The position numbers and the translations under genes are program-made. From the UHGV virus genome UHGV-0199318: a stretch of DNA of 37,852 bases; one strand, written 5' to 3'. This DNA comes from a virus. Numbering within the stretch: position 1 is the stretch's first letter; each line of letters begins with the position of its first letter. Shown here piece by piece: positions 20,531 to 28,957 of the stretch. The notes under the pieces were generated by a model that saw nothing but the letters and a program-made list of their open reading frames with translations, ran no database searches and had not been told where the DNA came from.

Positions 20531-20941
20531 ATGGTAATTACAATTCCGGGCAAACCGGTTGGAAAAGCAAGACCGAGATTCCGCAGAGCCGGATTTAAGG
20601 TCATTACATATACACCAGACGAAAGCAAAAAATACGAAAAGGAAGTTGCAAGGATTTACAAGCAGAGCATAGGCGTGCTTTACACGGACATCACTCTGAG
20701 AGTTCGAATTTTAGCGAAATTTCCGATTCCAGAGAGCTGGTCTAAGAAGAATAAGGATAGGGCTTTAAAAGGAGAAATAAAGCCGAATAAGAAGCCTGAC
20801 TTAGACAACATTGCAAAAATCATTTTGGATGGACTGAATGGAGTTGCATATACGGATGATAAGCAGGTGACCAGTCTGGAGATTGAAAAGGTATATTCGG
20901 ACACACCTTGCGTGGTGGTCTATATTGCGGAGGATGAGTGA
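20531..20941 (+). CDS. rusA: RusA Holliday junction resolvase
   Basis: ITIPGKPVGKARPRF...KKPDLDNIAKIILDGLNGVAYTDDKQVTSL is the canonical RusA signature. 136 aa. Confidence 0.8.
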   Translation: MVITIPGKPVGKARPRFRRAGFKVITYTPDESKKYEKEVARIYKQSIGVLYTDITLRVRILAKFPIPESWSKKNKDRALKGEIKPNKKPDLDNIAKIILDGLNGVAYTDDKQVTSLEIEKVYSDTPCVVVYIAEDE

Positions 20942-21810
20942 TGGCAGAAGTAAAGTGGATAAAGATAGCAACGGATATCTTTGATGATGAAAAGATATTG
21001 CTGATAGAGGCTTTGCCAGATGCTTATGCAATTATAACAGTCTGGTTCAAGCTACTATGCCTTGCCGGGAAAAAGAATAACGGTGGTGTATTCCTGATGA
21101 ATGACAAGATTCCCTACACAGACAAGATGCTGGCTACAATCTTTAGAATGAATGAATCCACTGTAAAGTTGGCTCTGAACGCGTTTGAGCAATTTAAAAT
21201 GATTGAGATAGTGGAGGGAATAATCACGATCCCGAACTGGAATAAGCACCAGACATTGGATGCTTATGAACGGAAAAAAGAGCGTGACAGGCTGTACCAA
21301 GAGGAAAGAAGAGCCAAACAAAGAGCTTTGATCGAAAAATCGTCTGACAAGTCGTCTGAAAGAACGTCTGACGTCGCTGTTTCAGATATAGATAAAGAAG
21401 AAGATAAAGAAAAAGATAATAATATATATGTCCCGTACAAAGAGATCATAACTTACCTGAATGAAAAGACAGGCAAGAAACTAAGGTGGGATGTTAAGAG
21501 TAACCAGAAGGAAATAAAAGCCAGATTCAATGAAGGATACACTCTGGATGACTTTAAGACGGTGATTGATAAAAAATACCATGAGTGGGGCAGAAAGCCT
21601 ACAAAAGAGGAATTACAGCGCGGAGTTAATGATATGAGGATATATCTAAGACCAAAAACCCTGTTCGGCAGTAATTTCGATGTTTATCTTAACCAAGAGC
21701 AGACGGAAAAAATGCCAGCAAAACCGCCAGTAAGCAGAAACTTAAATAACTTCGAACGCAGAGGATACGACATGGACTCTCTGGAAGAGCAGCTGTTGAA
21801 TTCAAATTAA
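20938..21810 (+). CDS. Phage replisome organizer (N-terminal replisome-organizer domain plus conserved phage C-terminal domain)
   Basis: N-terminus WIKIATDIFDDEKILLIEALPDAYAIITVWFKLLCLAGK is characteristic of the replisome organizer. C-terminus YLNEKTGKKLRW...EIKARFNEGYTLDDFKTVIDKKYHEW matches the conserved phage C-terminus family. Confidence 0.75.
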   Translation: MMAEVKWIKIATDIFDDEKILLIEALPDAYAIITVWFKLLCLAGKKNNGGVFLMNDKIPYTDKMLATIFRMNESTVKLALNAFEQFKMIEIVEGIITIPNWNKHQTLDAYERKKERDRLYQEERRAKQRALIEKSSDKSSERTSDVAVSDIDKEEDKEKDNNIYVPYKEIITYLNEKTGKKLRWDVKSNQKEIKARFNEGYTLDDFKTVIDKKYHEWGRKPTKEELQRGVNDMRIYLRPKTLFGSNFDVYLNQEQTEKMPAKPPVSRNLNNFERRGYDMDSLEEQLLNSN

Positions 21811-22529: not shown

Positions 22530-22717
22530 CGAACAATGATCATTTGAACAACATAACAGGAGAAATTGATACACCAGAAATCTCCGCAGTCAAGATGATA
22601 CTTACAAGAATAGATGAGGATTTAGAAAACGATCTGTACGAAGAAAACCGTGATAAATACCTGAATTTGTACAAGAGCCAAAAAGAGTGGCTGGAAAGAG
22701 AGGTTGAAAATGAGTAG
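22526..22717 (+). CDS. Hypothetical acidic protein (63 aa)
   Basis: ORF with AGAGGGAAA RBS; translationally coupled to its neighbours. Confidence 0.4.
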   Translation: MTNNDHLNNITGEIDTPEISAVKMILTRIDEDLENDLYEENRDKYLNLYKSQKEWLEREVENE

Positions 22718-23192
22718 ACCAGCACACTTTCTGGATCCGTACAAATTCCAGATCGAAGAGATGGTAAAACTCGGATGCACGGATGAGCATATCTGCAGAG
22801 TGCTTGAGGATATTACCGGAAAAGAAGTGAAAAAGAGGGTAATAGCAAACAAGAGGATGTGGTTAAGAAAGATGGAAAATAAAAGAAAACAATACGAACC
22901 GTACAAGGGAGAAATTAAGTACATGATCGAATACGGACTTACGATCCAGAACATCTATGCAGCAATAAGCGAAGAGAGCGGAATCGATGCAAGTATTGAA
23001 ACGTTCAAAAACTTTTTAAAAGACAATGATATGCTGCCTGAGTCAAAGAAACAGGAAGCTTCGGTCAAGGATATCTTTGGAAACATTGCAAATTACATGG
23101 AGTTTCACGAGGGCTGGGTGCGGACCAGTTGCCGGCTCAACAGGGCGATGTCGAATCCAAACCGGATATTAATGCGGAGGTATTTACAGTAG
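22704..23192 (+). CDS. Hypothetical protein (162 aa) with two HTH-like segments
   Basis: Overlaps the previous ORF by 14 nt. No confident family assignment. Confidence 0.45.
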   Translation: MKMSRPAHFLDPYKFQIEEMVKLGCTDEHICRVLEDITGKEVKKRVIANKRMWLRKMENKRKQYEPYKGEIKYMIEYGLTIQNIYAAISEESGIDASIETFKNFLKDNDMLPESKKQEASVKDIFGNIANYMEFHEGWVRTSCRLNRAMSNPNRILMRRYLQ

Positions 23193-23269
23193 GTTATAAA
23201 AAATAAGCGAAAAATAGAAAGGAGCCAGCCTCCGGCCGGGGCAAGGGTATACCGGGCTTCTGAGAAAAA

Positions 23270-24580
23270 ATGAAATTTATAGATTTTTTTGCTGGAATAG
23301 GTGGATTTAGAAGAGGGCTTGAGCTTGCGGGACATGAGTGTGTTGGATTCTGTGAGTGGGATAAGTACGCAACTGCAAGCTATACATCCATGCATTTAAT
23401 CACTGACAAACAAAGAGAATATTTAAACACTCTAACGCTCAAGCAAAGACAAAAGGAGATTTTAAAAAATGAATACAGAAACGGAGAATGGTACTCAGAT
23501 GACATTAGAACAGTGGATGCCAGAAGCTTGCCCGAAGCAGACTGTTGGACATTCGGCGCACCATGCCAAGATTTCAGTGTTGCCGGAAAGAGAGCAGGAC
23601 TGGACGGAGATAGATCAAGACTTGTACGAGAAATTTTTAGAATCTTGGAAGAACAAGAAGAAAAAGACAGACCTGAATGGATTATCTATGAGAATGTTAA
23701 GGGAATGCTTTCTAGCAACCGAGGACTCGACTATCTGTCAATCCTCTCTGAAATGGACAGGCTTGGGTACGACATCGAATGGCAGAATATCAACAGCAAA
23801 TGGTTCGTGCCACAAAACAGGGAGCGCATTTATACTATCGGACGTCTTAGAAGATACGGTTCCAGAAAAGTACTTCCTGTCACGGGAACAGTTGGAGAAA
23901 ATAGTGTTTCAATAATTGGTCATAGGGATGGATATAGAAGAAATACACAGTCTTTTTCTCCATACGGAATAACAGAAGCCCTCTCTACGGCACAAGGTGG
24001 AGGAAGAGGACATCATGTCGTAATTCCTGTTCTCACGCCAGTTAGAGCAGAGAAACGTCAGAACGGACGGAGATTCAAGGAAAATGGAGACGAAATGTTT
24101 ACTATTACAGCGCAGGATAGACACGGAATAGCAATAGGAATTTTGAGAAAAGTAAGAACAGAATACGGCAAGAGCATAAGAAAAAAGTACGAATCGGGAG
24201 AAATAAAAATAAGTCGACATAAGTTTATTGCTTATGAAATAAGGGAAGATGGAATAAGTAACACAATTTCGACGGTAACAAAAGATAATATGATTACTGT
24301 CTTTGCAGGACTATCAAAAAAAGAAAACGGAATGTATATCGAAATGCCAGGAGGCTTCTATGCTTACTGCGTGTGGCATGAAAAATATCAATGTTACATA
24401 GCAATCAGAAAGCTGACTCCAAAAGAATGCTTTAGACTACAAGGGTGGACGGATGATTATTTTGAGAAGGCTAAGTTTGTAAATTCGGACAGTCAACTTT
24501 ACAAACAGGCTGGAAATGGAGTTACGGTAAATGTTGTAAGAGCAATTGGAGATAAAATGACGATACGGAGGAATGGCTAA
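23270..24580 (+). CDS. Orphan DNA (cytosine-5)-methyltransferase
   Basis: All C5-MTase motifs are in order: I FFAGIGG, IV GAPCQDFS (catalytic Cys), VI ENVKGM, VIII QNRERIY, then a ~200-aa variable target-recognition region and X GNGVTVNV. No adjacent restriction endonuclease gene. Confidence 0.9.
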   Translation: MKFIDFFAGIGGFRRGLELAGHECVGFCEWDKYATASYTSMHLITDKQREYLNTLTLKQRQKEILKNEYRNGEWYSDDIRTVDARSLPEADCWTFGAPCQDFSVAGKRAGLDGDRSRLVREIFRILEEQEEKDRPEWIIYENVKGMLSSNRGLDYLSILSEMDRLGYDIEWQNINSKWFVPQNRERIYTIGRLRRYGSRKVLPVTGTVGENSVSIIGHRDGYRRNTQSFSPYGITEALSTAQGGGRGHHVVIPVLTPVRAEKRQNGRRFKENGDEMFTITAQDRHGIAIGILRKVRTEYGKSIRKKYESGEIKISRHKFIAYEIREDGISNTISTVTKDNMITVFAGLSKKENGMYIEMPGGFYAYCVWHEKYQCYIAIRKLTPKECFRLQGWTDDYFEKAKFVNSDSQLYKQAGNGVTVNVVRAIGDKMTIRRNG

Positions 24581-24996
24581 TGACGAAAACAGAAGAAACA
24601 TGGATGGACGGGATCACAACGGAAACGATGGAACATATCTGCGACAACCTGTGCAAGTATCCAGATCAGCTAAGTGAAATGGAACTGGAAGATAAATGCG
24701 CAGAGTGCAAGATGGGACGGTTTGTGTGCGATATATTGAACCAATATAACAATTGCGCAAAGCTGCTGGAGCAGATGCAGGAACTGAAAGAGCGAGATAC
24801 GGCGAAGAAGCCGAAAAAATACGGAGTGACAGACAGCCAAGGTGTATTCCATCCATTTGTTGGAGTTGATGGAGTACCGTATGACTTATGTCCGAATTGT
24901 GATAGTAATTTATGTACAACTGGTATGTTTGGAAGAAGCAAAAAAAGAATGAAGTATTGTGAGAAGTGCGGCCAGAGATTAGATTGGAGTGAGTAA
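24580..24996 (+). CDS. Cysteine-rich hypothetical protein (138 aa, several CxxC pairs)
   Basis: CDNLC, CAECK, CPNCDSNLC and CEKCG zinc-ribbon-like motifs. ATGA-coupled to the methyltransferase stop. Confidence 0.5.
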   Translation: MTKTEETWMDGITTETMEHICDNLCKYPDQLSEMELEDKCAECKMGRFVCDILNQYNNCAKLLEQMQELKERDTAKKPKKYGVTDSQGVFHPFVGVDGVPYDLCPNCDSNLCTTGMFGRSKKRMKYCEKCGQRLDWSE

Positions 24997-24997
24997 C

Positions 24998-25174
24998 ATG
25001 GAAGAATTAAAGAAATGCCCGTTTTGTGGCGGAGAAGCAATGCTGAAAATCAATTACGGATTTGATGAAAAGGTTATTTCGTCTTTTGTGTACTGCGAAG
25101 AATGCGGAGTCGCAACGCGAAGATGTACTTTAGAAACAACTGCTATAGGGAAATGGAACAGGAGGGTGAAATAG
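24998..25174 (+). CDS. Lar-family restriction-alleviation-like zinc-ribbon protein
   Basis: MEELKKCPFCGGEAMLKI...CEECG matches the Lar family N-terminal signature (..LKPCPFCGG.A.L). 58 aa. GGAGTGAG RBS. Confidence 0.6.
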   Translation: MEELKKCPFCGGEAMLKINYGFDEKVISSFVYCEECGVATRRCTLETTAIGKWNRRVK

Positions 25175-25176
25175 CT

Positions 25177-25326
25177 ATGATGGGAAAATGTAAATTAACA
25201 AGTATATGCGGACACGATTATTGCTGCATAGAATGTCCGGACAACGATATTTGTAATATACAGTGTGCAGATAAGGACATGTATGAGTATTGTGCGGAGT
25301 GTCCGGAATATGAGGAGGTGGAGTGA
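25177..25326 (+). CDS. Small Cys-rich protein (49 aa, 10 Cys)
   Basis: MMGKCKLTSICGHDYCCIECPDNDICNIQCADKDMYEYCAECPEYEEVE. GGAGGGTGA RBS. Confidence 0.4.
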   Translation: MMGKCKLTSICGHDYCCIECPDNDICNIQCADKDMYEYCAECPEYEEVE

Positions 25327-25499
25327 TGATTTTATTTTGCCCTGATTTAGTCGGAAAAGAAGAGGTAAAAGCAATGCTTATTGGGAATGGAGATTTTATC
25401 AGACCAGTGTTGCATCCGTGCATTAAAGAGAAATGCATAGCGTACAAGGATGGAAAGTGCCTGAAATACGACAATGAAGTGGAGGTAAAAGATGAATAG
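25326..25499 (+). CDS. Small Cys-containing protein (57 aa)
   Basis: Start overlaps the previous stop (TGATG). C..C pairs present. Below the ORF-track cutoff. Confidence 0.3.
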   Translation: MILFCPDLVGKEEVKAMLIGNGDFIRPVLHPCIKEKCIAYKDGKCLKYDNEVEVKDE

Positions 25500-26010
25500 A
25501 GAAATCCTTTTTAAAGCAAAGAGAAAAGATTGGGAAGAGCTCCCAAAAGATCAGTGGTGGGTGGAAGGTGATTTGTTGCACATGAGGTATGGTGATATAG
25601 TTCTGATAAACAATTTCGAAGACCAATTATTTAGATGTGACGGTAATATGGTCTGCCAGTTCACAGGATTACATGACAATACAAAATGGAGAGATCTTAC
25701 CGAAGCAGAAAAAGAATCATTTCTTTCCGATTGGAATTATAGAAAAGACAGAAAAAATAAGATTGAAGATTGGAGTGGTCGGAAGATTTGGGAGAATGAT
25801 ATTGTTGAATGTAATAAAAGAAAAGAAGAATGTGGATTATATAAAGTCATTTGGAGAAAAGAGTATGCTGATTTTGGGGTTGTGCCTATAAGCAATACAT
25901 GCATAGGACAATATCCAATAGGGTTTAGCTACGGAAAGACATTACATGGGAGAGATTATAAATCGGTCGGAAACATTTTTGATAATCCAGAGTTGTTGGA
26001 GGTGGAATAA
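25492..26010 (+). CDS. YopX-family protein
   Basis: ILFKAKRKD...W.EG.L.........HG....VGNIFDNPELLE is the YopX C-terminal signature (GNI.ENPELL). 172 aa. Confidence 0.75.
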   Translation: MNREILFKAKRKDWEELPKDQWWVEGDLLHMRYGDIVLINNFEDQLFRCDGNMVCQFTGLHDNTKWRDLTEAEKESFLSDWNYRKDRKNKIEDWSGRKIWENDIVECNKRKEECGLYKVIWRKEYADFGVVPISNTCIGQYPIGFSYGKTLHGRDYKSVGNIFDNPELLEVE

Positions 26011-26123
26011 TGAAAAAAGAGTGCATAAAATGCAAATATTATAAAAACTACTATAAATCAACAGAATGTTATTGTGAAAAAGGTTATTGCGTTATGGATA
26101 AGAAATATAGGAGACGGAGTAAA
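26010..26123 (+). CDS. Small Cys-rich protein (37 aa)
   Basis: MKKECIKCKYYKNYYKSTECYCEKGYCVMDKKYRRRSK. Coupled on both sides by 1-nt overlaps. Confidence 0.3.
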
Positions 26124-26494
26124 TGAACGTACTAGAGAAGATTTTAGAAGAGATTGAAGAACGTGTGAACATGGTTAAAAACATTCCAGTCAATGAAGAT
26201 GATGATTTTCTGGATGGTGAGGAATGTTATGAAGCCGGAAGAATACAAGGTCGATATGAAGAGCTAGTATGGTGCAGAAATATAATTCGTTCCCACATGG
26301 ACGAAGTTCTGGATAATAATGACGGTTGGATCCCGGTGGGAGAGAGGCTGCCGGAGGATGGAAAAGAAGTTTTATGCACAGATGGGAAATACATCTATTT
26401 AGTAGAGTATGATGCGGACTTAGACGCAGCGTTCGGAGAAGCGGATGGAATTATAGCATGGCAGCCACTTCCAAAACCATACAAGGAGGAATAA
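26123..26494 (+). CDS. DUF551-domain phage protein
   Basis: C-terminus WIPVGERLPEDGKEVLCTDG...GIIAWQPLPKPYKE matches the DUF551 signature (W....RLPE...V......W.PLP.P). Confidence 0.65.
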   Translation: MNVLEKILEEIEERVNMVKNIPVNEDDDFLDGEECYEAGRIQGRYEELVWCRNIIRSHMDEVLDNNDGWIPVGERLPEDGKEVLCTDGKYIYLVEYDADLDAAFGEADGIIAWQPLPKPYKEE

Positions 26495-27285: not shown

Positions 27286-27536
27286 CCAGAGAGAGCATGA
27301 AACGTAGAAAGGAGATAGCAGGAGTTATCCGAAAGATTGAAGCGTACACTATGGCAACGAGGAAGCCCTGTGAGACAGCTTTAAAGCAACAGGAGCATAA
27401 AGCCTTTGCCTGTGATTTTAAAGGCGGCGAGAGGGCGAATAAGGACGCTGTGGAGTACATAGCAGAGAAATACAACATAAAAGAGCCAATTCCTGGAGGT
27501 GATAGAGTTGGACAAGAAAACACTGAAAAAGTATAA
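27282..27536 (+). CDS. Hypothetical protein (84 aa)
   Basis: ATGA-coupled to the previous gene. The longer ORF-track version (from 27192) lacks an RBS. Confidence 0.4.
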   Translation: MTRESMKRRKEIAGVIRKIEAYTMATRKPCETALKQQEHKAFACDFKGGERANKDAVEYIAEKYNIKEPIPGGDRVGQENTEKV

Positions 27537-27936
27537 GCCAAACAAAGATAGACTTATCCGGATTGAGAACCAGATACAAGAACTCTGTGAACGGGAATCG
27601 ACTGTTGTCATGGGGAAGGTAACGGGATCCAGCGCAGATTTTCCGTACACCGAAGTGAGAACATCTGTACAAATGTATGATCCTTACGAGGAAGAGAATA
27701 TAAGACGTCAGATCAGAAGAAAAGAAGCGGACAGGCTGCAGATCCTAAAAGAGCAAAGAGAGATTGAGGAATACATAAATGGGATTGGTGATCCGGAGAT
27801 TAAGGAGATATTCGAATTATCGTTTATAGAGGGAAAGAAGCAGAGAGAGGTTGCAGATATAATATCCATTGATAGAAGTAGAATATCTCGAAAGGTTAGC
27901 ACTTATTTAGAAAACGCACACAAAGCACAAAAATAA
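27508..27936 (+). CDS. ArpU-family phage late transcriptional regulator (sigma-70 region-4-like HTH)
   Basis: ~142 aa. C-terminus REVADIISIDRSRISRKVSTYLE is a region-4-type HTH. Positioned immediately upstream of the packaging/late genes. TTG at 27508 follows GGAGGTGA; GTG at 27499 is an alternative start. Confidence 0.65.
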   Translation: MDKKTLKKYKPNKDRLIRIENQIQELCERESTVVMGKVTGSSADFPYTEVRTSVQMYDPYEEENIRRQIRRKEADRLQILKEQREIEEYINGIGDPEIKEIFELSFIEGKKQREVADIISIDRSRISRKVSTYLENAHKAQK

Positions 27937-28159: not shown

Positions 28160-28283
28160 TGGTACCAAAACGCAGATATCCGCAGATCTGCAAAAACAAA
28201 CAAAAAATAGATTCAGCGATCTATATTTAGTGTCAGTACCCGATTGCGGATAGGGTAAAGGATGTCAATAAAGGGCATCCTAT

Positions 28284-28356
28284 GGGTGTATAGCTCAGTA
28301 GGTAGAGCAATCGGCTGTTAACCGATGTGTCGTAGGTTCGAGTCCTGCTATACCCG
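28284..28356 (+). tRNA. tRNA-Asn (anticodon GUU)
   Basis: 73-nt cloverleaf: acceptor GGGTGTA/TATACCC, D-arm GCTC-AGTAGGTA-GAGC, anticodon arm ATCGG-CTGTTAA-CCGAT (U33, GUU, A37), variable GTGTC, T-arm GTAGG-TTCGAGT-CCTGC, discriminator G. Confidence 0.9.
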
Positions 28357-28501
28357 TTGTGGACTACTGCAAGGTTTCTCCTTTACTTATATATTTTTGA
28401 TTGTGTTTTTTGTAGTCGTATTCAAGCGTATTAGCAGTAGTCCTAAATTCTTAGCATCCAGAGATGGATACTTTTATTATGTTTTAAAGGTGGTGGGTCG
28501 G

Positions 28502-28957
28502 ATGGCAAAAGGTAAATATCAGGAATGGCTAGAGCCGGAAGGCTTGCTAAAGATAGAGGGATGGGCGAGAGACGGTCTGACGGATGAACAGATTGCAGAT
28601 AATATCGGGATTTCCAGAAGCACATTAAATAGCTGGAAAGACAAGTATTCGGACATTTCGGACACCCTAAAAAGAGGGAAAGAGGTCGTTGATCGTCAAG
28701 TCGAGAATACTCTGTTAAAACGTGCGCTCGGATATGAGTACACGGAAACAACCAGAGAATACATACCGGAACTTGATGAGATGAAAACTACGAAAAAGGT
28801 CACAAAGCAAGTAGTACCAGACACAACAGCCCAGATCTTTTGGCTGAAGAACCGGAAACCAGACAAGTGGAGAGATAAGCAGGAATACGAGGACAGAACA
28901 GCAATTGAAAAGCTTGATGAAATCTTGAAAGGATTGCATGACAATGCAGCTAAGTAA
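28502..28957 (+). CDS. terS: Terminase small subunit (HTH-containing)
   Basis: 151 aa from ATG 28502 with AAGGTGGTGGG RBS. HTH LTDEQIADNIGISRSTLNSW. Immediately upstream of and overlapping TerL. The ORF-track 5' extension overlaps the tRNA and is rejected. Confidence 0.75.
   Translation: MAKGKYQEWLEPEGLLKIEGWARDGLTDEQIADNIGISRSTLNSWKDKYSDISDTLKRGKEVVDRQVENTLLKRALGYEYTETTREYIPELDEMKTTKKVTKQVVPDTTAQIFWLKNRKPDKWRDKQEYEDRTAIEKLDEILKGLHDNAAK

What the first reader, a model, noticed from the sequence alone, without database searches (positions are those of the whole stretch)
23193..26123. Putative anti-restriction island: orphan C5 cytosine methyltransferase, Lar-like protein and four or more tiny cysteine-rich proteins
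A full-length Dcm-type MTase (all motifs, long TRD) has no cognate endonuclease. It is followed in tight translational coupling by a 138-aa multi-CxxC protein, a 58-aa protein with the Lar restriction-alleviation signature (KKCPFCGGEA...CEECG), a 49-aa protein with 10 Cys, a 57-aa Cys-containing protein, YopX and a 37-aa CxxC protein. The density of small zinc-ribbon-like ORFs next to a self-protective methylase suggests a multi-target counter-defence locus, and most of the small proteins have no assignable family. A GC-rich element with CCGGCCGG (about 23232-23258) sits just upstream of the MTase start and could be a regulatory or target-related site.
Basis: partly seen in the sequence, partly recalled or inferred. 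Interest (0 to 1): 0.65.

Follow-up and report, generated by a model that had tools for sequence, protein, structure and literature searches.

The report
Phage methylase slot plus small accessory genes
This is the ordinary, highly shuffled accessory-gene stretch of a gut Lachnospiraceae temperate phage, holding an intact self-protective DNA methylase and a Lar-type protein; the unusual part is a 45-base invariant leader that marks a swap-in slot for many kinds of DNA-modification genes.

Summary
Window 23270-26126 encodes an intact C5 cytosine methyltransferase, a 138-aa multi-Cys protein, a Lar/RalR-family protein, tiny Cys-rich proteins of 49, 57 and 38 aa, and YopX, all tightly packed. No restriction endonuclease family was found in the window. 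The small ORFs are real genes: each recurs in 15-34 related loci with dN/dS 0.08-0.5.

The "island" reading is only partly supported. In relatives each gene assorts independently, and the closest methylase relatives lack the 138-aa and Lar genes. Methylase plus Lar as anti-restriction accessories of Ruminococcus gnavus phages is already published. The small Cys proteins match no informative family or fold.

Two additions. The methylase belongs to the multispecific SPR/phi3T/H2 phage lineage. It has three TRD-like cores; one is 62-67% identical to the TRD those enzymes share, which I infer targets GGCC.

The GC-rich element is a discrete 45-nt module (23215-23259). Its 25-mer core is exact in at least 120 viral contigs and 26 genomes of at least 7 Lachnospiraceae genera. 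It always lies just 5' of an interchangeable modification gene: C5, N4/N6 or Dam methylase, or PAPS-reductase-like. Most of those cassette proteins, but not this one, end in a clamp-binding-like Q[LM]Sx(x)DF tail. The element's mechanism is unresolved.

The parts
22704..23192 (+). 162-aa protein of unknown function immediately upstream of the leader. Its C-terminal part is shared with gp45 'putative DNA binding protein' of phiRg507T2_2.
   Evidence: ORF list. No Pfam or PHROG hit. Window 22921-23203 is 96% identical to L001. It is one of 35 unrelated upstream contexts of the element.
23215..23259 (+). 45-nt invariant leader GAAAGGAGCCAGCCTCCGGCCGGGGCAAGGGTATACCGGGCTTCT. It starts with a consensus Shine-Dalgarno-like GAAAGGAG, contains the palindromes CCGGCCGG and GGTATACC, and ends in CUUCU, which can pair with the SD. 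It marks the 5' edge of the DNA-modification gene slot.
   Evidence: Sequence. Its 25-mer core is exact in at least 120 viral contigs and 26 bacterial genome contigs. Conservation stops sharply on both sides. 35 upstream flank types combine with at least 10 cassette classes. No Rfam match. Fold -17 kcal/mol, z about -0.3 to -0.45.
23270..24580 (+). Orphan C5 cytosine DNA methyltransferase, 436 aa, of the SPR/phi3T/H2 phage lineage. It has three TRD-like cores near aa 233, 277 and 328. It has no proximal SD; the only GGAG lies 46 nt upstream, inside the leader.
   Evidence: PF00145 1.2e-56, phrog_116 5.7e-94. Motif alignment to M.HhaI. 43-45% identity to phi3T, H2 and SPR MTases; aa 251-292 are 62-67% identical. 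TRD swap against the 460-aa sibling. RBS context.
24580..24996 (+). 138-aa two-domain Cys-rich protein. It has an N-terminal Cys-containing helical part, a linker ELKERDTAKKP, and a C-terminal zinc ribbon CPxC...CxxCGQRLDWSE. Function unknown.
   Evidence: About 190 unnamed homologues. Invariant C104, C107, C127, C130, G131, Q132. Weak match to phrog_16351 'DNA binding protein', 1.1e-5. AF2 pLDDT 62 and no Foldseek hit. dN/dS 0.30.
24998..25174 (+). Lar/RalR-family zinc-ribbon protein, 58 aa.
   Evidence: PF14354 4.4e-14, phrog_599 7e-12. 29% identical to E. coli Rac RalR/Lar, E 8e-6. dN/dS 0.17.
25177..25326 (+). 49-aa protein with 9 conserved Cys, probably metal binding. It belongs to a narrow family of stand-alone tiny proteins.
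   Evidence: 18 clusters at 90% identity. 32 representatives among 1.84 billion, all 40-108 aa. Cys conservation. dN/dS 0.34. Fused in frame to a weak SAM-methyltransferase domain in L016.
25326..25499 (+). 57-aa protein with 4 Cys. Function unknown.
   Evidence: 18 related loci and 10 variants. No family match. dN/dS 0.51.
25492..26010 (+). YopX-family protein, 172 aa.
   Evidence: PF09643 1.9e-9, phrog_8684 and phrog_98.
26010..26126 (+). 38-aa Cys5 protein with a basic tail (KKYRRRSK). Function unknown.
   Evidence: 16 related loci and 4 variants. dN/dS 0.08. No family match.
26123..26494 (+). DUF551 protein, 123 aa. It is the next member of the same accessory array, just outside the finding's range.
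   Evidence: PF04448 1.5e-5, phrog_15198 5e-17.

Best explanation
The region is the hypervariable accessory-gene array that lies between the replication/recombination module and the late-gene activator of a temperate siphophage of the Ruminococcus (Mediterraneibacter) gnavus / Lachnospiraceae group.

The array begins with a DNA-modification slot. Its 5' edge is a 45-nt invariant leader (23215-23259). In this phage the slot holds an intact orphan C5 methyltransferase of the SPR/phi3T/H2 multispecific lineage.

Inferred: the enzyme methylates replicating phage DNA at more than one short target, most likely including GGCC, and so protects it from host Type II restriction.

The genes after it (138-aa zinc-ribbon protein, Lar/RalR-family protein, 49-, 57- and 38-aa Cys proteins, YopX, DUF551) are separate cassettes. 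They are translationally coupled and are exchanged one by one between related phages by recombination at short conserved gene-boundary sequences. Only Lar has a family-level link to restriction alleviation. The others are real genes of unknown role.

Shown here: gene content, intactness, orphan status, purifying selection, independent assortment, the modular leader, and homology to the multispecific enzymes.

Inferred only: enzyme activity, target sequences, Lar activity, and any role of the leader.
For: - Context. RecT, DUF3799, RusA and a replisome organiser lie upstream. A sigma-r4/DUF1492 late activator, tRNA-Asn and terminase lie downstream.
- Relatives. The window is a mosaic relative of R. 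gnavus phages.
- Exact replacement. In RG-TP1 and MT835606 the MTase is replaced by a 118-aa ORF, with breakpoints at 23275 and 24565.
- Assortment. The matrix of 57 loci shows independent assortment.
- MTase. Motifs are intact and dN/dS is 0.20.
- TRD modularity. Identity to the 460-aa sibling is 97% in the catalytic parts but 19% over aa 301-377, with a 41-aa insert.
- Lineage. Identity to phi3T, H2 and SPR MTases is 43-45%. Within that, aa 251-292 are 62-67% identical to the TRD common to all three.
- Site usage. GGCC is the most avoided 4-bp palindrome in the window, 16 observed against 43 expected.
- Lar. Membership of the Lar family is confirmed.
- Small genes. They are conserved and constrained and each has its own SD.
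- Literature. Published work already treats MTase and Lar as variable anti-R-M accessories in these phages.
Against: - No expression or activity data exist for any of these genes.
- The GGCC assignment rests on my recollection that GGCC is the only target shared by SPR, phi3T and H2, and on TRD homology. It is not a measurement.
- Strong GGCC avoidance could equally mean the phage is usually not protected at GGCC.
- The MTase lacks a proximal SD and sits behind a GC-rich leader, so it may be poorly translated.
- E. coli Lar/RalR is now annotated as a DNase toxin of a type I toxin-antitoxin pair (PMC4041452). The 'restriction alleviation' label may therefore not describe what family members do.
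- Independent assortment does not exclude that several of the small proteins are individually anti-defence proteins.
Confidence: 0.72

Rival explanations
1. First reader's model. The MTase, Lar and the small Cys-rich proteins together form a dedicated multi-target counter-defence island. Each small zinc-ribbon protein would inhibit a different host defence (R-M, BREX, CRISPR and so on).
For: - Two members have family-level links to anti-restriction.
- The genes are tightly coupled and co-oriented.
- The small proteins are conserved and constrained.
- Early accessory regions of temperate phages are a common home of anti-defence genes (general knowledge).
- In phiRM10 a methylase and a Lar gene also lie about 1 kb apart.
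Against: - The members do not co-occur beyond what the shared genomic position gives.
- The closest MTase relatives lack the 138-aa and Lar genes.
- There is no family, PHROG or fold hit tying the 138-, 49-, 57- or 38-aa proteins to any anti-defence protein.
- The same array also holds YopX and DUF551, generic phage genes of unknown role.
Confidence: 0.2
2. The 45-nt leader is a cis-acting RNA element that sets the expression of whichever modification gene follows. Three versions are possible:
- (a) an SD-sequestering hairpin (AGGAGCC paired with GGCUUCU) that keeps translation low or conditional;
- (b) a split ribosome-binding site, in which the folded insert brings the distal SD next to the AUG, as in T4 gene 38 (from memory);
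- (c) a STAB-SD-type 5' stabiliser, as in Bacillus cryIIIA mRNA (from memory), where a ribosome bound at GAAAGGAG shields the downstream mRNA from 5' exonuclease.
For: - The element is always in one orientation and ends 2-11 nt before the start codon.
- It begins with a consensus SD that has no start codon within reach. The MTase is the only gene of the array without a proximal SD.
- The closing helix is predicted in the canonical element and in the diverged B-type variants found before other MTases.
- The + strand folds better than the - strand (-17.0 against -13.7 kcal/mol), because its G-U pairs become A-C mismatches on the other strand.
- Its boundaries are sharp against 35 unrelated upstream flanks.
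Against: - Folding energy is no better than for shuffled sequences (z -0.3 to -0.45).
- The element is nearly invariant, so no covariation test is possible. B-type variants are rare: 5 viral hits.
- It matches no Rfam family.
- The inner part consists of perfect DNA palindromes (CCGGCCGG and GGTATACC; TCCGGA or TTCCCGGGAA and GCTGCAGC in the B type), which suits a DNA-binding dimer as well as an RNA fold.
Confidence: 0.45
3. The 45-nt element and the conserved start of the next gene (ATG ACT AAA ACA GAA GAA ACA TGG ATG GA, encoding MTKTEETWMDG) have no expression role. They are short homology arms (boundary sequences) that persist because the phage single-strand-annealing recombinases (RecT or Erf) use them to swap cassettes. 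Alternatively, the element is an operator for a DNA-binding protein.
For: - MTase replacement breakpoints lie exactly at these sequences.
- 68 different upstream/cassette combinations share only the element.
- The MTKTEETW leader heads unrelated proteins, including an I-HmuI-like HNH homing endonuclease in L003.
- These phages encode RecT or Erf recombinases.
- The element contains palindromes.
Against: - Neutral homology arms should drift. The 25-mer core is identical in prophages of at least 7 genera, while the adjacent spacer and flanks vary.
- The fixed orientation and distance to the start codon are not required for a recombination site.
- There is no second copy elsewhere in the window or the loci.
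- No candidate binding protein is consistently linked to it.
Confidence: 0.3
4. The Lar-like protein is not a restriction-alleviation factor. It would be a small DNase or toxin like E. coli RalR, or simply a zinc-ribbon DNA-binding protein.
For: - The founding member is now annotated as 'endodeoxyribonuclease toxin RalR', with an RalA antitoxin sRNA (PMC4041452).
- The window protein scores the same on PF14354 as RalR does.
Against: - No antisense sRNA partner was looked for or seen.
- The gene is translationally coupled inside an operon of early genes, unlike a type I toxin-antitoxin locus.
- Restriction alleviation by Rac Lar is also documented (King and Murray 1995, from memory).
Confidence: 0.25

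Closest known systems
Multispecific orphan C5 methyltransferases of Bacillus temperate phages (M.SPRI, M.Phi3TI, M.H2I, SPbeta MtbP)
   Same: - Phage-borne and orphan, with all C5 motifs.
- 43-45% identity over the whole protein.
- A long variable region built of TRD-like cores.
- aa 251-292 are 62-67% identical to the TRD shared by SPR, phi3T and H2.
- TRD modules are exchanged between near-identical siblings, as described for that family.
   Different: - The host clade is Lachnospiraceae.
- There is a 25-30 aa insertion between motifs II and III, and an 85-aa window-specific insert carrying a third TL-type core.
- The second core is only 32-36% identical to the phi3T/H2 TRD.
- Multispecific activity was not measured.
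Lar/RalR of the E. coli Rac prophage (PF14354)
   Same: - Same Pfam family with an equal score.
- About 60 aa.
- Shares the CPFCG...C..C zinc ribbon and the WN(K/R)R tail.
   Different: - Only 29% identical.
- Firmicute phage host, and no RalA-like partner examined.
- The founding member's function is itself disputed between restriction alleviation and DNase toxin.
Published accessory genes of R. gnavus phages (phiRg/phiRM10 series; RgGU series)
   Same: Those papers list a DNA methyltransferase and a Lar-family PF14354 protein as non-universal anti-R-M accessory genes. phiRM10 carries the same 45-nt leader in front of its gp48 methylase.
   Different: - The window shares only 7-21% of its sequence with them at 86-91% identity.
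- Its methylase is a C5 enzyme of another lineage.
- The leader, the slot and the C-terminal tails were not among the passages my term searches of those two papers returned. The papers were not read in full.
Mosaic boundary or linker sequences of temperate phages, and hotspots for defence or anti-defence cassettes
   Same: - Short conserved sequences at gene boundaries flank interchangeable genes.
- Replacement breakpoints lie at those sequences.
   Different: - Here one 45-nt module is invariant across at least 7 host genera.
- It is tied to one functional class of cargo, DNA-modification enzymes.
- It sits in a fixed position relative to the start codon.
Beta-clamp-binding motif QL(S/D)LF and PIP box Qxx[IL]xxFF (PMC9690074)
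   Same: Cassette proteins in relatives end in QLSLF, QMSLF, Q[ML]S[IL]xDF[IL] or QLRFA. One starts MKGQLSLFEP.
   Different: - The window's own MTase has no such motif.
- Binding to DnaN is untested.
- The same tail on an Erf-like recombinase would also fit an SSB or other replisome partner.

Membership tests
C5 cytosine DNA methyltransferase (PF00145) | Profile match above the curated cut-off | tested here: met
   192.9 bits against a cut-off of 22, E 1.2e-56. phrog_116 5.7e-94.
C5 cytosine DNA methyltransferase (PF00145) | Catalytic motifs I (FxGxG), IV (PCQ with catalytic Cys), VI (ENV), VIII (QxRxR), IX and X (GN) are intact | tested here: met
   FAGIGG, GAPCQDFS, YENVKG, QNRERIY, RKLTPKECFRLQG and QAGNGVTVN align with M.HhaI and with SPR, phi3T and H2.
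C5 cytosine DNA methyltransferase (PF00145) | Transfers methyl to C5 of cytosine in a defined target | not testable with these tools
   Needs methylome sequencing or restriction protection assays.
Orphan (solitary) phage methyltransferase | No cognate restriction endonuclease in the element | tested here: met
   No endonuclease family among the neighbours or the other ORFs of 90 aa or more in the 37.8-kb window. ORFs without any family hit cannot be excluded.
Multispecific phage C5 methyltransferases (SPR/phi3T/H2 type) | Homologous catalytic core | tested here: met
   43-45% identity over the full length.
Multispecific phage C5 methyltransferases (SPR/phi3T/H2 type) | Two or more contiguous TRDs in the variable region | tested here: inconclusive
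   Three TRD-like cores at aa 233, 277 and 328. aa 251-292 are 62-67% identical to the shared Bacillus TRD. aa 212-250 are only 32-36% identical. The third core has no characterised counterpart. TRD boundaries in the reference enzymes are taken from memory.
Multispecific phage C5 methyltransferases (SPR/phi3T/H2 type) | Methylates two or more unrelated targets | not testable with these tools
   Only indirect hints: GGCC is strongly avoided, while CCGG and GCNGC are not.
Lar/RalR (PF14354) | Profile match above the cut-off and a zinc ribbon with CPFCG...CxxC | tested here: met
   52.9 bits against a cut-off of 28.6. E. coli RalR scores 53.5. Pairwise E 8e-6.
Lar/RalR (PF14354) | Alleviates Type I restriction (or acts as a DNase toxin with an sRNA antitoxin) | not testable with these tools
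   Function in the founding member is itself dual (PMC4041452). No antisense partner was searched for.
Co-inherited anti-restriction island | Member genes co-occur in relatives more than their position alone explains | tested here: not met
   The 57-locus matrix shows each gene present or absent independently. The five closest MTase relatives lack the 138-aa and Lar genes.
YopX (PF09643) | Profile match above the cut-off | tested here: met
   38 bits against a cut-off of 22.4.
Known structured RNA family (Rfam 15) for the 45-nt leader | Covariance-model match | tested here: not met
   Nothing at the gathering threshold in the window. Only a chance hit at E 3.3 in 23100-23400.
Structured cis-regulatory RNA (generic) | Fold more stable than shuffles, and compensatory changes in helices | tested here: inconclusive
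   z -0.3 to -0.45. The element is invariant, so there is no covariation. The closing helix recurs in 5 B-type variants, but only through G-C to G-U changes.
STAB-SD type 5' mRNA stabiliser | SD-like sequence in a leader that is not followed by a start codon at initiation distance | tested here: met
   GAAAGGAG at 23215-23222. There is no ATG, GTG or TTG until 23270.
STAB-SD type 5' mRNA stabiliser | Lies near a transcript 5' end and prolongs mRNA half-life | not testable with these tools
   Needs 5' end mapping and decay measurements. No promoter-like site was found just upstream.
Beta-clamp-binding proteins | Terminal QL(S/D)LF-like motif | tested here: not met
   No window protein has it. 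It is present in 72 of 97 distinct slot proteins of relatives, against 28 of 1113 other ORFs.

The most novel reading that the evidence does not exclude
Lachnospiraceae temperate phages carry a dedicated, recombination-exchangeable expression slot for DNA-modification enzymes. Its 5' edge is a 45-nt invariant cis element (SD-like sequence, palindrome-rich insert, anti-SD) that controls the translation or stability of whichever cassette is installed.

Most cassette enzymes use a shared terminal Q[LM]Sx(x)DF / QLSLF peptide to dock on the host sliding clamp or another replisome protein. This holds for C5, N4/N6 and Dam methylases and for PAPS-reductase-like proteins. Phage DNA would then be modified at the fork, before restriction enzymes can reach it.

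The window's SPR-type multispecific MTase would be a cassette that uses the leader but not the tail.
Probability: 0.3. Interest if true: 0.75.

Novelty: new member of a known kind. Interest (0 to 1): 0.42.

Why it matters
As posed, the finding is ordinary. An orphan protective methylase and a Lar-family gene in the variable early region of a gut temperate phage are already reported for this phage group.

Three things could still be useful.

1. The MTase extends the classical multispecific SPR/phi3T/H2 lineage to abundant human-gut Lachnospiraceae phages. It shows TRD swapping between 97%-identical siblings, so it offers ready material for specificity engineering and for explaining the host range of R. 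gnavus phages.
2. The 45-nt leader gives a simple sequence tag. It finds the anti-restriction modification gene in hundreds of gut phage and prophage genomes, and it may be a new cis-regulatory element.
3. A terminal clamp-binding-like peptide is shared by four unrelated classes of phage DNA-modification enzymes. If it is real, it would make replication-coupled methylation in bacteria directly testable.

Tried and rejected
- Target-related site. I tested whether the GC-rich element is specific to this MTase. It is not: the identical element precedes unrelated MTase classes and PAPS-reductase-like genes.
- Known RNA family or unusually stable fold. Rfam gave nothing. z-scores are near zero on both strands.
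- uORF or coding element. There is no start codon after the SD, and the frame is not conserved because spacer length varies.
- Plus-strand terminator or sigma-70 promoter at the element. There is no U-tract after the hairpin and no promoter hit. The only terminator-like call is on the minus strand, where no gene needs it.
- Further or diverged copies. nhmmer found only the canonical copies, one per locus. A regex search of all 1.76 Mb held found 4 loci with B-type variants; a looser search turned up one more, in L180. A collection scan for the B type gave 5 hits. That is too few for covariation, so no covariance model was built.
- Fold of the 138-aa protein. The AF2 model has pLDDT 62. The best Foldseek hit against the PDB has E 1.1, which is meaningless.
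- Families for the 49-, 57- and 38-aa proteins. Pfam and PHROGs gave nothing. A profile search of 1.84 billion representatives with the 49-aa family found only 32 tiny proteins.
- TRD map of SPR and phi3T. The EMBO J paper is not held, so TRD assignments rest on alignment logic and memory.
- Clamp-binding tail in window proteins. None was found.

Full report
**What the window is.**
The 37.8-kb window is a complete or near-complete temperate siphophage genome. It holds the following:
- tail genes, then an IS-type transposase on the minus strand at 8374-9642;
- an endolysin, a serine integrase and a repressor;
- an anti-repressor, an AAA ATPase, RecT, a DUF3799 nuclease, RusA and a replisome organiser (20938-21810);
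- the region of the finding;
- a sigma-region-4/DUF1492 late activator (27499-27936), tRNA-Asn (28283-28357), terminase and head genes.

At the DNA level it is a mosaic relative of Ruminococcus (Mediterraneibacter) gnavus phages. It shares 7-21% of its sequence with them at 86-91% identity.

**Check of the observation.**
- The MTase (23270-24580, 436 aa) matches PF00145 at 1.2e-56. It aligns with M.HhaI through motifs I, IV (PCQ), VI (ENV), VIII, IX and X. It carries an insertion at aa 39-69 and a variable region of about 187 aa, against about 100 aa in M.HhaI.
- The Lar-like protein (24998-25174) passes the PF14354 cut-off.
- YopX passes PF09643.
- Minor corrections: the 49-aa protein has 9 Cys, not 10, and the last small protein is 38 aa, not 37.
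- Successive genes are separated by -8 to +2 nt. Each small gene has its own GGAGG-type SD.
- No endonuclease family was found anywhere in the window.

**Are the small ORFs real?**
Yes. Homologues occur in 34 loci (138 aa), 15 (Lar), 25 (49 aa), 18 (57 aa) and 16 (38 aa), with their Cys residues conserved. Median dN/dS is 0.08-0.51, like the MTase and YopX.

Their families are narrow and unnamed:
- The 138-aa protein has about 190 homologues, all hypothetical.
- The 49-aa protein has 18 clusters at 90% identity. It has only 32 representatives among 1.84 billion proteins, all of them tiny.
- The 138-aa protein is a two-part protein. Its N-terminal domain is swappable. Its C-terminal zinc ribbon is invariant (CPxC...CxxCGQ).
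- Its AF2 model is weak (pLDDT 62) and has no structural neighbour.

**Is it an island?**
No. The comparison with relatives shows cassette-by-cassette mosaicism.
- In RG-TP1 and MT835606 the MTase is replaced exactly by a 118-aa ORF. The breakpoints are at 23275 and 24565.
- In phiRg507T2_2 the 138-aa and Lar homologues are present without an MTase.
- I examined 57 loci that have at least 4 kb downstream of the slot. The 138-aa, Lar, 49-aa, 57-aa, YopX and 38-aa genes are present or absent independently. The five closest MTase relatives have neither the 138-aa nor the Lar gene.
- Gene-boundary sequences are reused. The start MTKTEETWMDG heads the 138-aa family. It also heads proteins with different N-terminal domains, and an I-HmuI-like HNH homing endonuclease in L003.

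Two papers on R. gnavus phages already list a DNA methyltransferase and a Lar-family PF14354 protein as non-universal anti-R-M accessories (PMC10072058 and PMC13435783).

**Lar.**
The window protein and E. coli Rac Lar/RalR score equally on PF14354 (52.9 and 53.5 bits). They align at 29% identity, E 8e-6. Family membership is therefore met. RalR is now annotated as a DNase toxin of a type I toxin-antitoxin pair (PMC4041452). The functional label is therefore weak.

**The MTase in more detail.**
- A 460-aa sibling in related contigs is 97% identical in aa 1-190 and 378-436. It is only 19% identical in aa 301-377, and it has an extra 41-aa insert. That is a TRD-module swap.
- The variable region finds the classical multispecific Bacillus phage enzymes in tblastn.
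- Overall identity to phi3T, H2 and SPR is 43-45%.
- Segment aa 251-292 (VIPVLTPVRAEKRQNGRRFKENGDEMFTITAQDRHGIAIG) is 62-67% identical to the C-terminal-most TRD shared by all three. This is higher than the identity in the catalytic core.
- From established knowledge (recalled, not re-read): SPR methylates GGCC, CCGG and CCWGG. phi3T methylates GGCC and GCNGC. H2 methylates GGCC, GCNGC and a third site. The shared TRD should therefore be the GGCC one, so I infer GGCC as one target.
- A second core (aa 212-250) is 32-36% identical to the phi3T/H2 TRD. A third TL-type core (aa 328) lies in a window-specific 85-aa insert.
- In the window, GGCC is the most avoided 4-bp palindrome: 16 observed against 43 expected. 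GGNCC and CCWGG are also rare, while CCGG and GCNGC are not. This fits pressure from GGCC-type restriction but does not prove which sites the enzyme protects.

**The GC-rich element.**
This is the most unexpected result.
- It also occurs in 26 bacterial genome contigs. These come from Blautia, Mediterraneibacter, Lacrimispora, Sellimonas, Oliverpabstia, Roseburia and Merdimonas, plus unclassified Lachnospiraceae.
- The conserved block is 45 nt, GAAAGGAGCC...GGGCTTCT (window 23215-23259). Sequence conservation stops abruptly on both sides.
- 152 loci had enough flank to analyse; some contigs were fetched twice. Among them there are 35 unrelated upstream flank clusters and 68 different upstream/downstream combinations.
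- There is one copy per locus.
- The element always ends 2-11 nt before the ATG of the next gene.
- That gene falls into these classes:
  - a C5 MTase of at least three kinds;
  - an N6_N4 MTase;
  - a D12 Dam MTase;
  - a PAPS-reductase-like protein of three kinds;
  - less often, a 118-120-aa or 136-aa protein of unknown function.
- The published phage phiRM10 has the element in front of gp48 'DNA methylase'.
- More distant homologues of the window's MTase (62% identity or less) lack the element and have ordinary RBSs. The exception is a diverged B-type version. It occurs before three MTases, and again before a second MTase in two prophages. The B type is rare.

**What the element might do.**
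- In the window the MTase is the only gene of the array without a proximal SD. The only GGAG is the element's first 8 nt, 46 nt before the ATG.
- The predicted fold pairs AGGAGCC with GGCUUCU around two small hairpins. The same closing helix is predicted in B-type variants.
- The + strand folds better than the - strand.
- None of the folds beats shuffled controls. There is no Rfam match. The element is too invariant for a covariation test.
- The inner part is made of perfect palindromes in both types, which would also suit a DNA-binding dimer.
- My ranking is as follows. The three readings are not mutually exclusive.
  - An RNA-level expression role, about 0.45. This could be SD sequestration, a split RBS or a STAB-SD-like stabiliser.
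  - A recombination junction or operator, about 0.3.
  - The remaining probability I leave unassigned.

**A second observation in the relatives.**
- 72 of 97 distinct proteins encoded right after the element end in Q[LM]S[IL]xDF..., QLSLF/QMSLF or QLRFA. Only 28 of 1113 other ORFs in the same loci do. Those 28 are mostly second-position modification enzymes, plus an Erf-like recombinase.
- Codons differ between cassettes (CAA/CAG; AGC/AGT/TCA), so the conservation is at the peptide level.
- One PAPS-reductase-like protein instead starts MKGQLSLFEP.
- This matches the bacterial clamp-binding consensus QL(S/D)LF, and loosely the PIP box Qxx[IL]xxFF (PMC9690074).
- The window's own MTase and all other window proteins lack it.

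**Verdict.**
- The 'anti-restriction island' interpretation is partly supported. The MTase and Lar are real. The rest is unproven, and there is no co-inheritance.
- The locus is a new member of a known kind.
- The leader, the slot and the tail peptide are leads worth an experiment. Their mechanism is inferred, not shown.

Noticed in passing
L004-L123 and L169-L194, at the C-termini of the ORF following the 45-nt element: Unrelated DNA-modification enzymes share a terminal peptide: Q[LM]S[IL]xDF..., QLSLF/QMSLF or QLRFA. They include Dam, N6_N4 and C5 MTases, three kinds of PAPS-reductase-like protein and a 118-aa protein. The peptide occurs in 72 of 97 slot proteins against 28 of 1113 other ORFs. 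Codons differ, so conservation is at the peptide level. It resembles the beta-clamp-binding motif. An Erf-like recombinase carries it too.
   Followed up: partly
L153, L154, L156 (about 4940-5000); L175 4426-4490; L180: A diverged 'B-type' leader (AAAGGAGC(C)GAAGC..TCCGGA/TTCCCGGGAA..GCTGCAGCGGCTTC) sits before C5 MTase genes. In L175 it lies directly after a Dam cassette and precedes a second MTase; L180 carries a near-identical copy. It has the same SD/anti-SD frame as the canonical element but different internal palindromes. It is rare: 5 viral hits.
   Followed up: partly
window 24565-24610; L002 2105-2150; L003 4433-4481: The start of the gene after the slot (ATGACTAAAACAGAAGAAACATGGATGGA, encoding MTKTEETWMDG) is a conserved right-hand junction. 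It is shared by unrelated proteins: the 138-aa family, variants with other N-terminal domains, and an I-HmuI-like HNH/NUMOD homing endonuclease in L003.
   Followed up: partly
L016, homologue of window 25177-25326: In one relative the 49-aa Cys9 protein is fused in frame, between ...CPEYEE and VE, to a 160-aa domain with SAM-methyltransferase motifs (ILDATCGSK, FDPPH). The Pfam match to Methyltransf_11 is only just above threshold.
   Followed up: partly
window, whole sequence: Short-palindrome usage is skewed. GGCC occurs 16 times against 43 expected, GGNCC 18 against 69, and CCWGG 14 against 40. CTAG is also low. By contrast CCGG (150) and TCCGGA (23 against 6) are over-represented.
   Followed up: partly
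window 8374-9642 (-): A 422-aa IS-type transposase (phrog_2199, 1.7e-70) lies on the minus strand between the tail genes and the lysis genes. It is probably an insertion sequence inside the phage genome.
   Followed up: no
window 28283-28357 (+): A tRNA-Asn (GTT) lies between the late activator and the small terminase. It overlaps the start of the mechanically listed ORF 28325-28957, whose real start is probably further downstream (about 28514). Relatives carry tRNA-Ala plus tRNA-Asn, or tRNA-Asn alone, at this position.
   Followed up: no
L094 and L145, siblings of the window MTase: Two relatives carry truncated copies of the same MTase (341 and 211 aa). The cassette therefore decays in some lineages.
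   Followed up: no
L181, ORF after the element: In one prophage the slot holds a 176-aa protein whose sequence, by eye, resembles an HNH/NUMOD homing endonuclease (MVNVEIWRDTYIYGEQYQVSNTG...) rather than a modification enzyme. It was not scanned against any family library.
   Followed up: no
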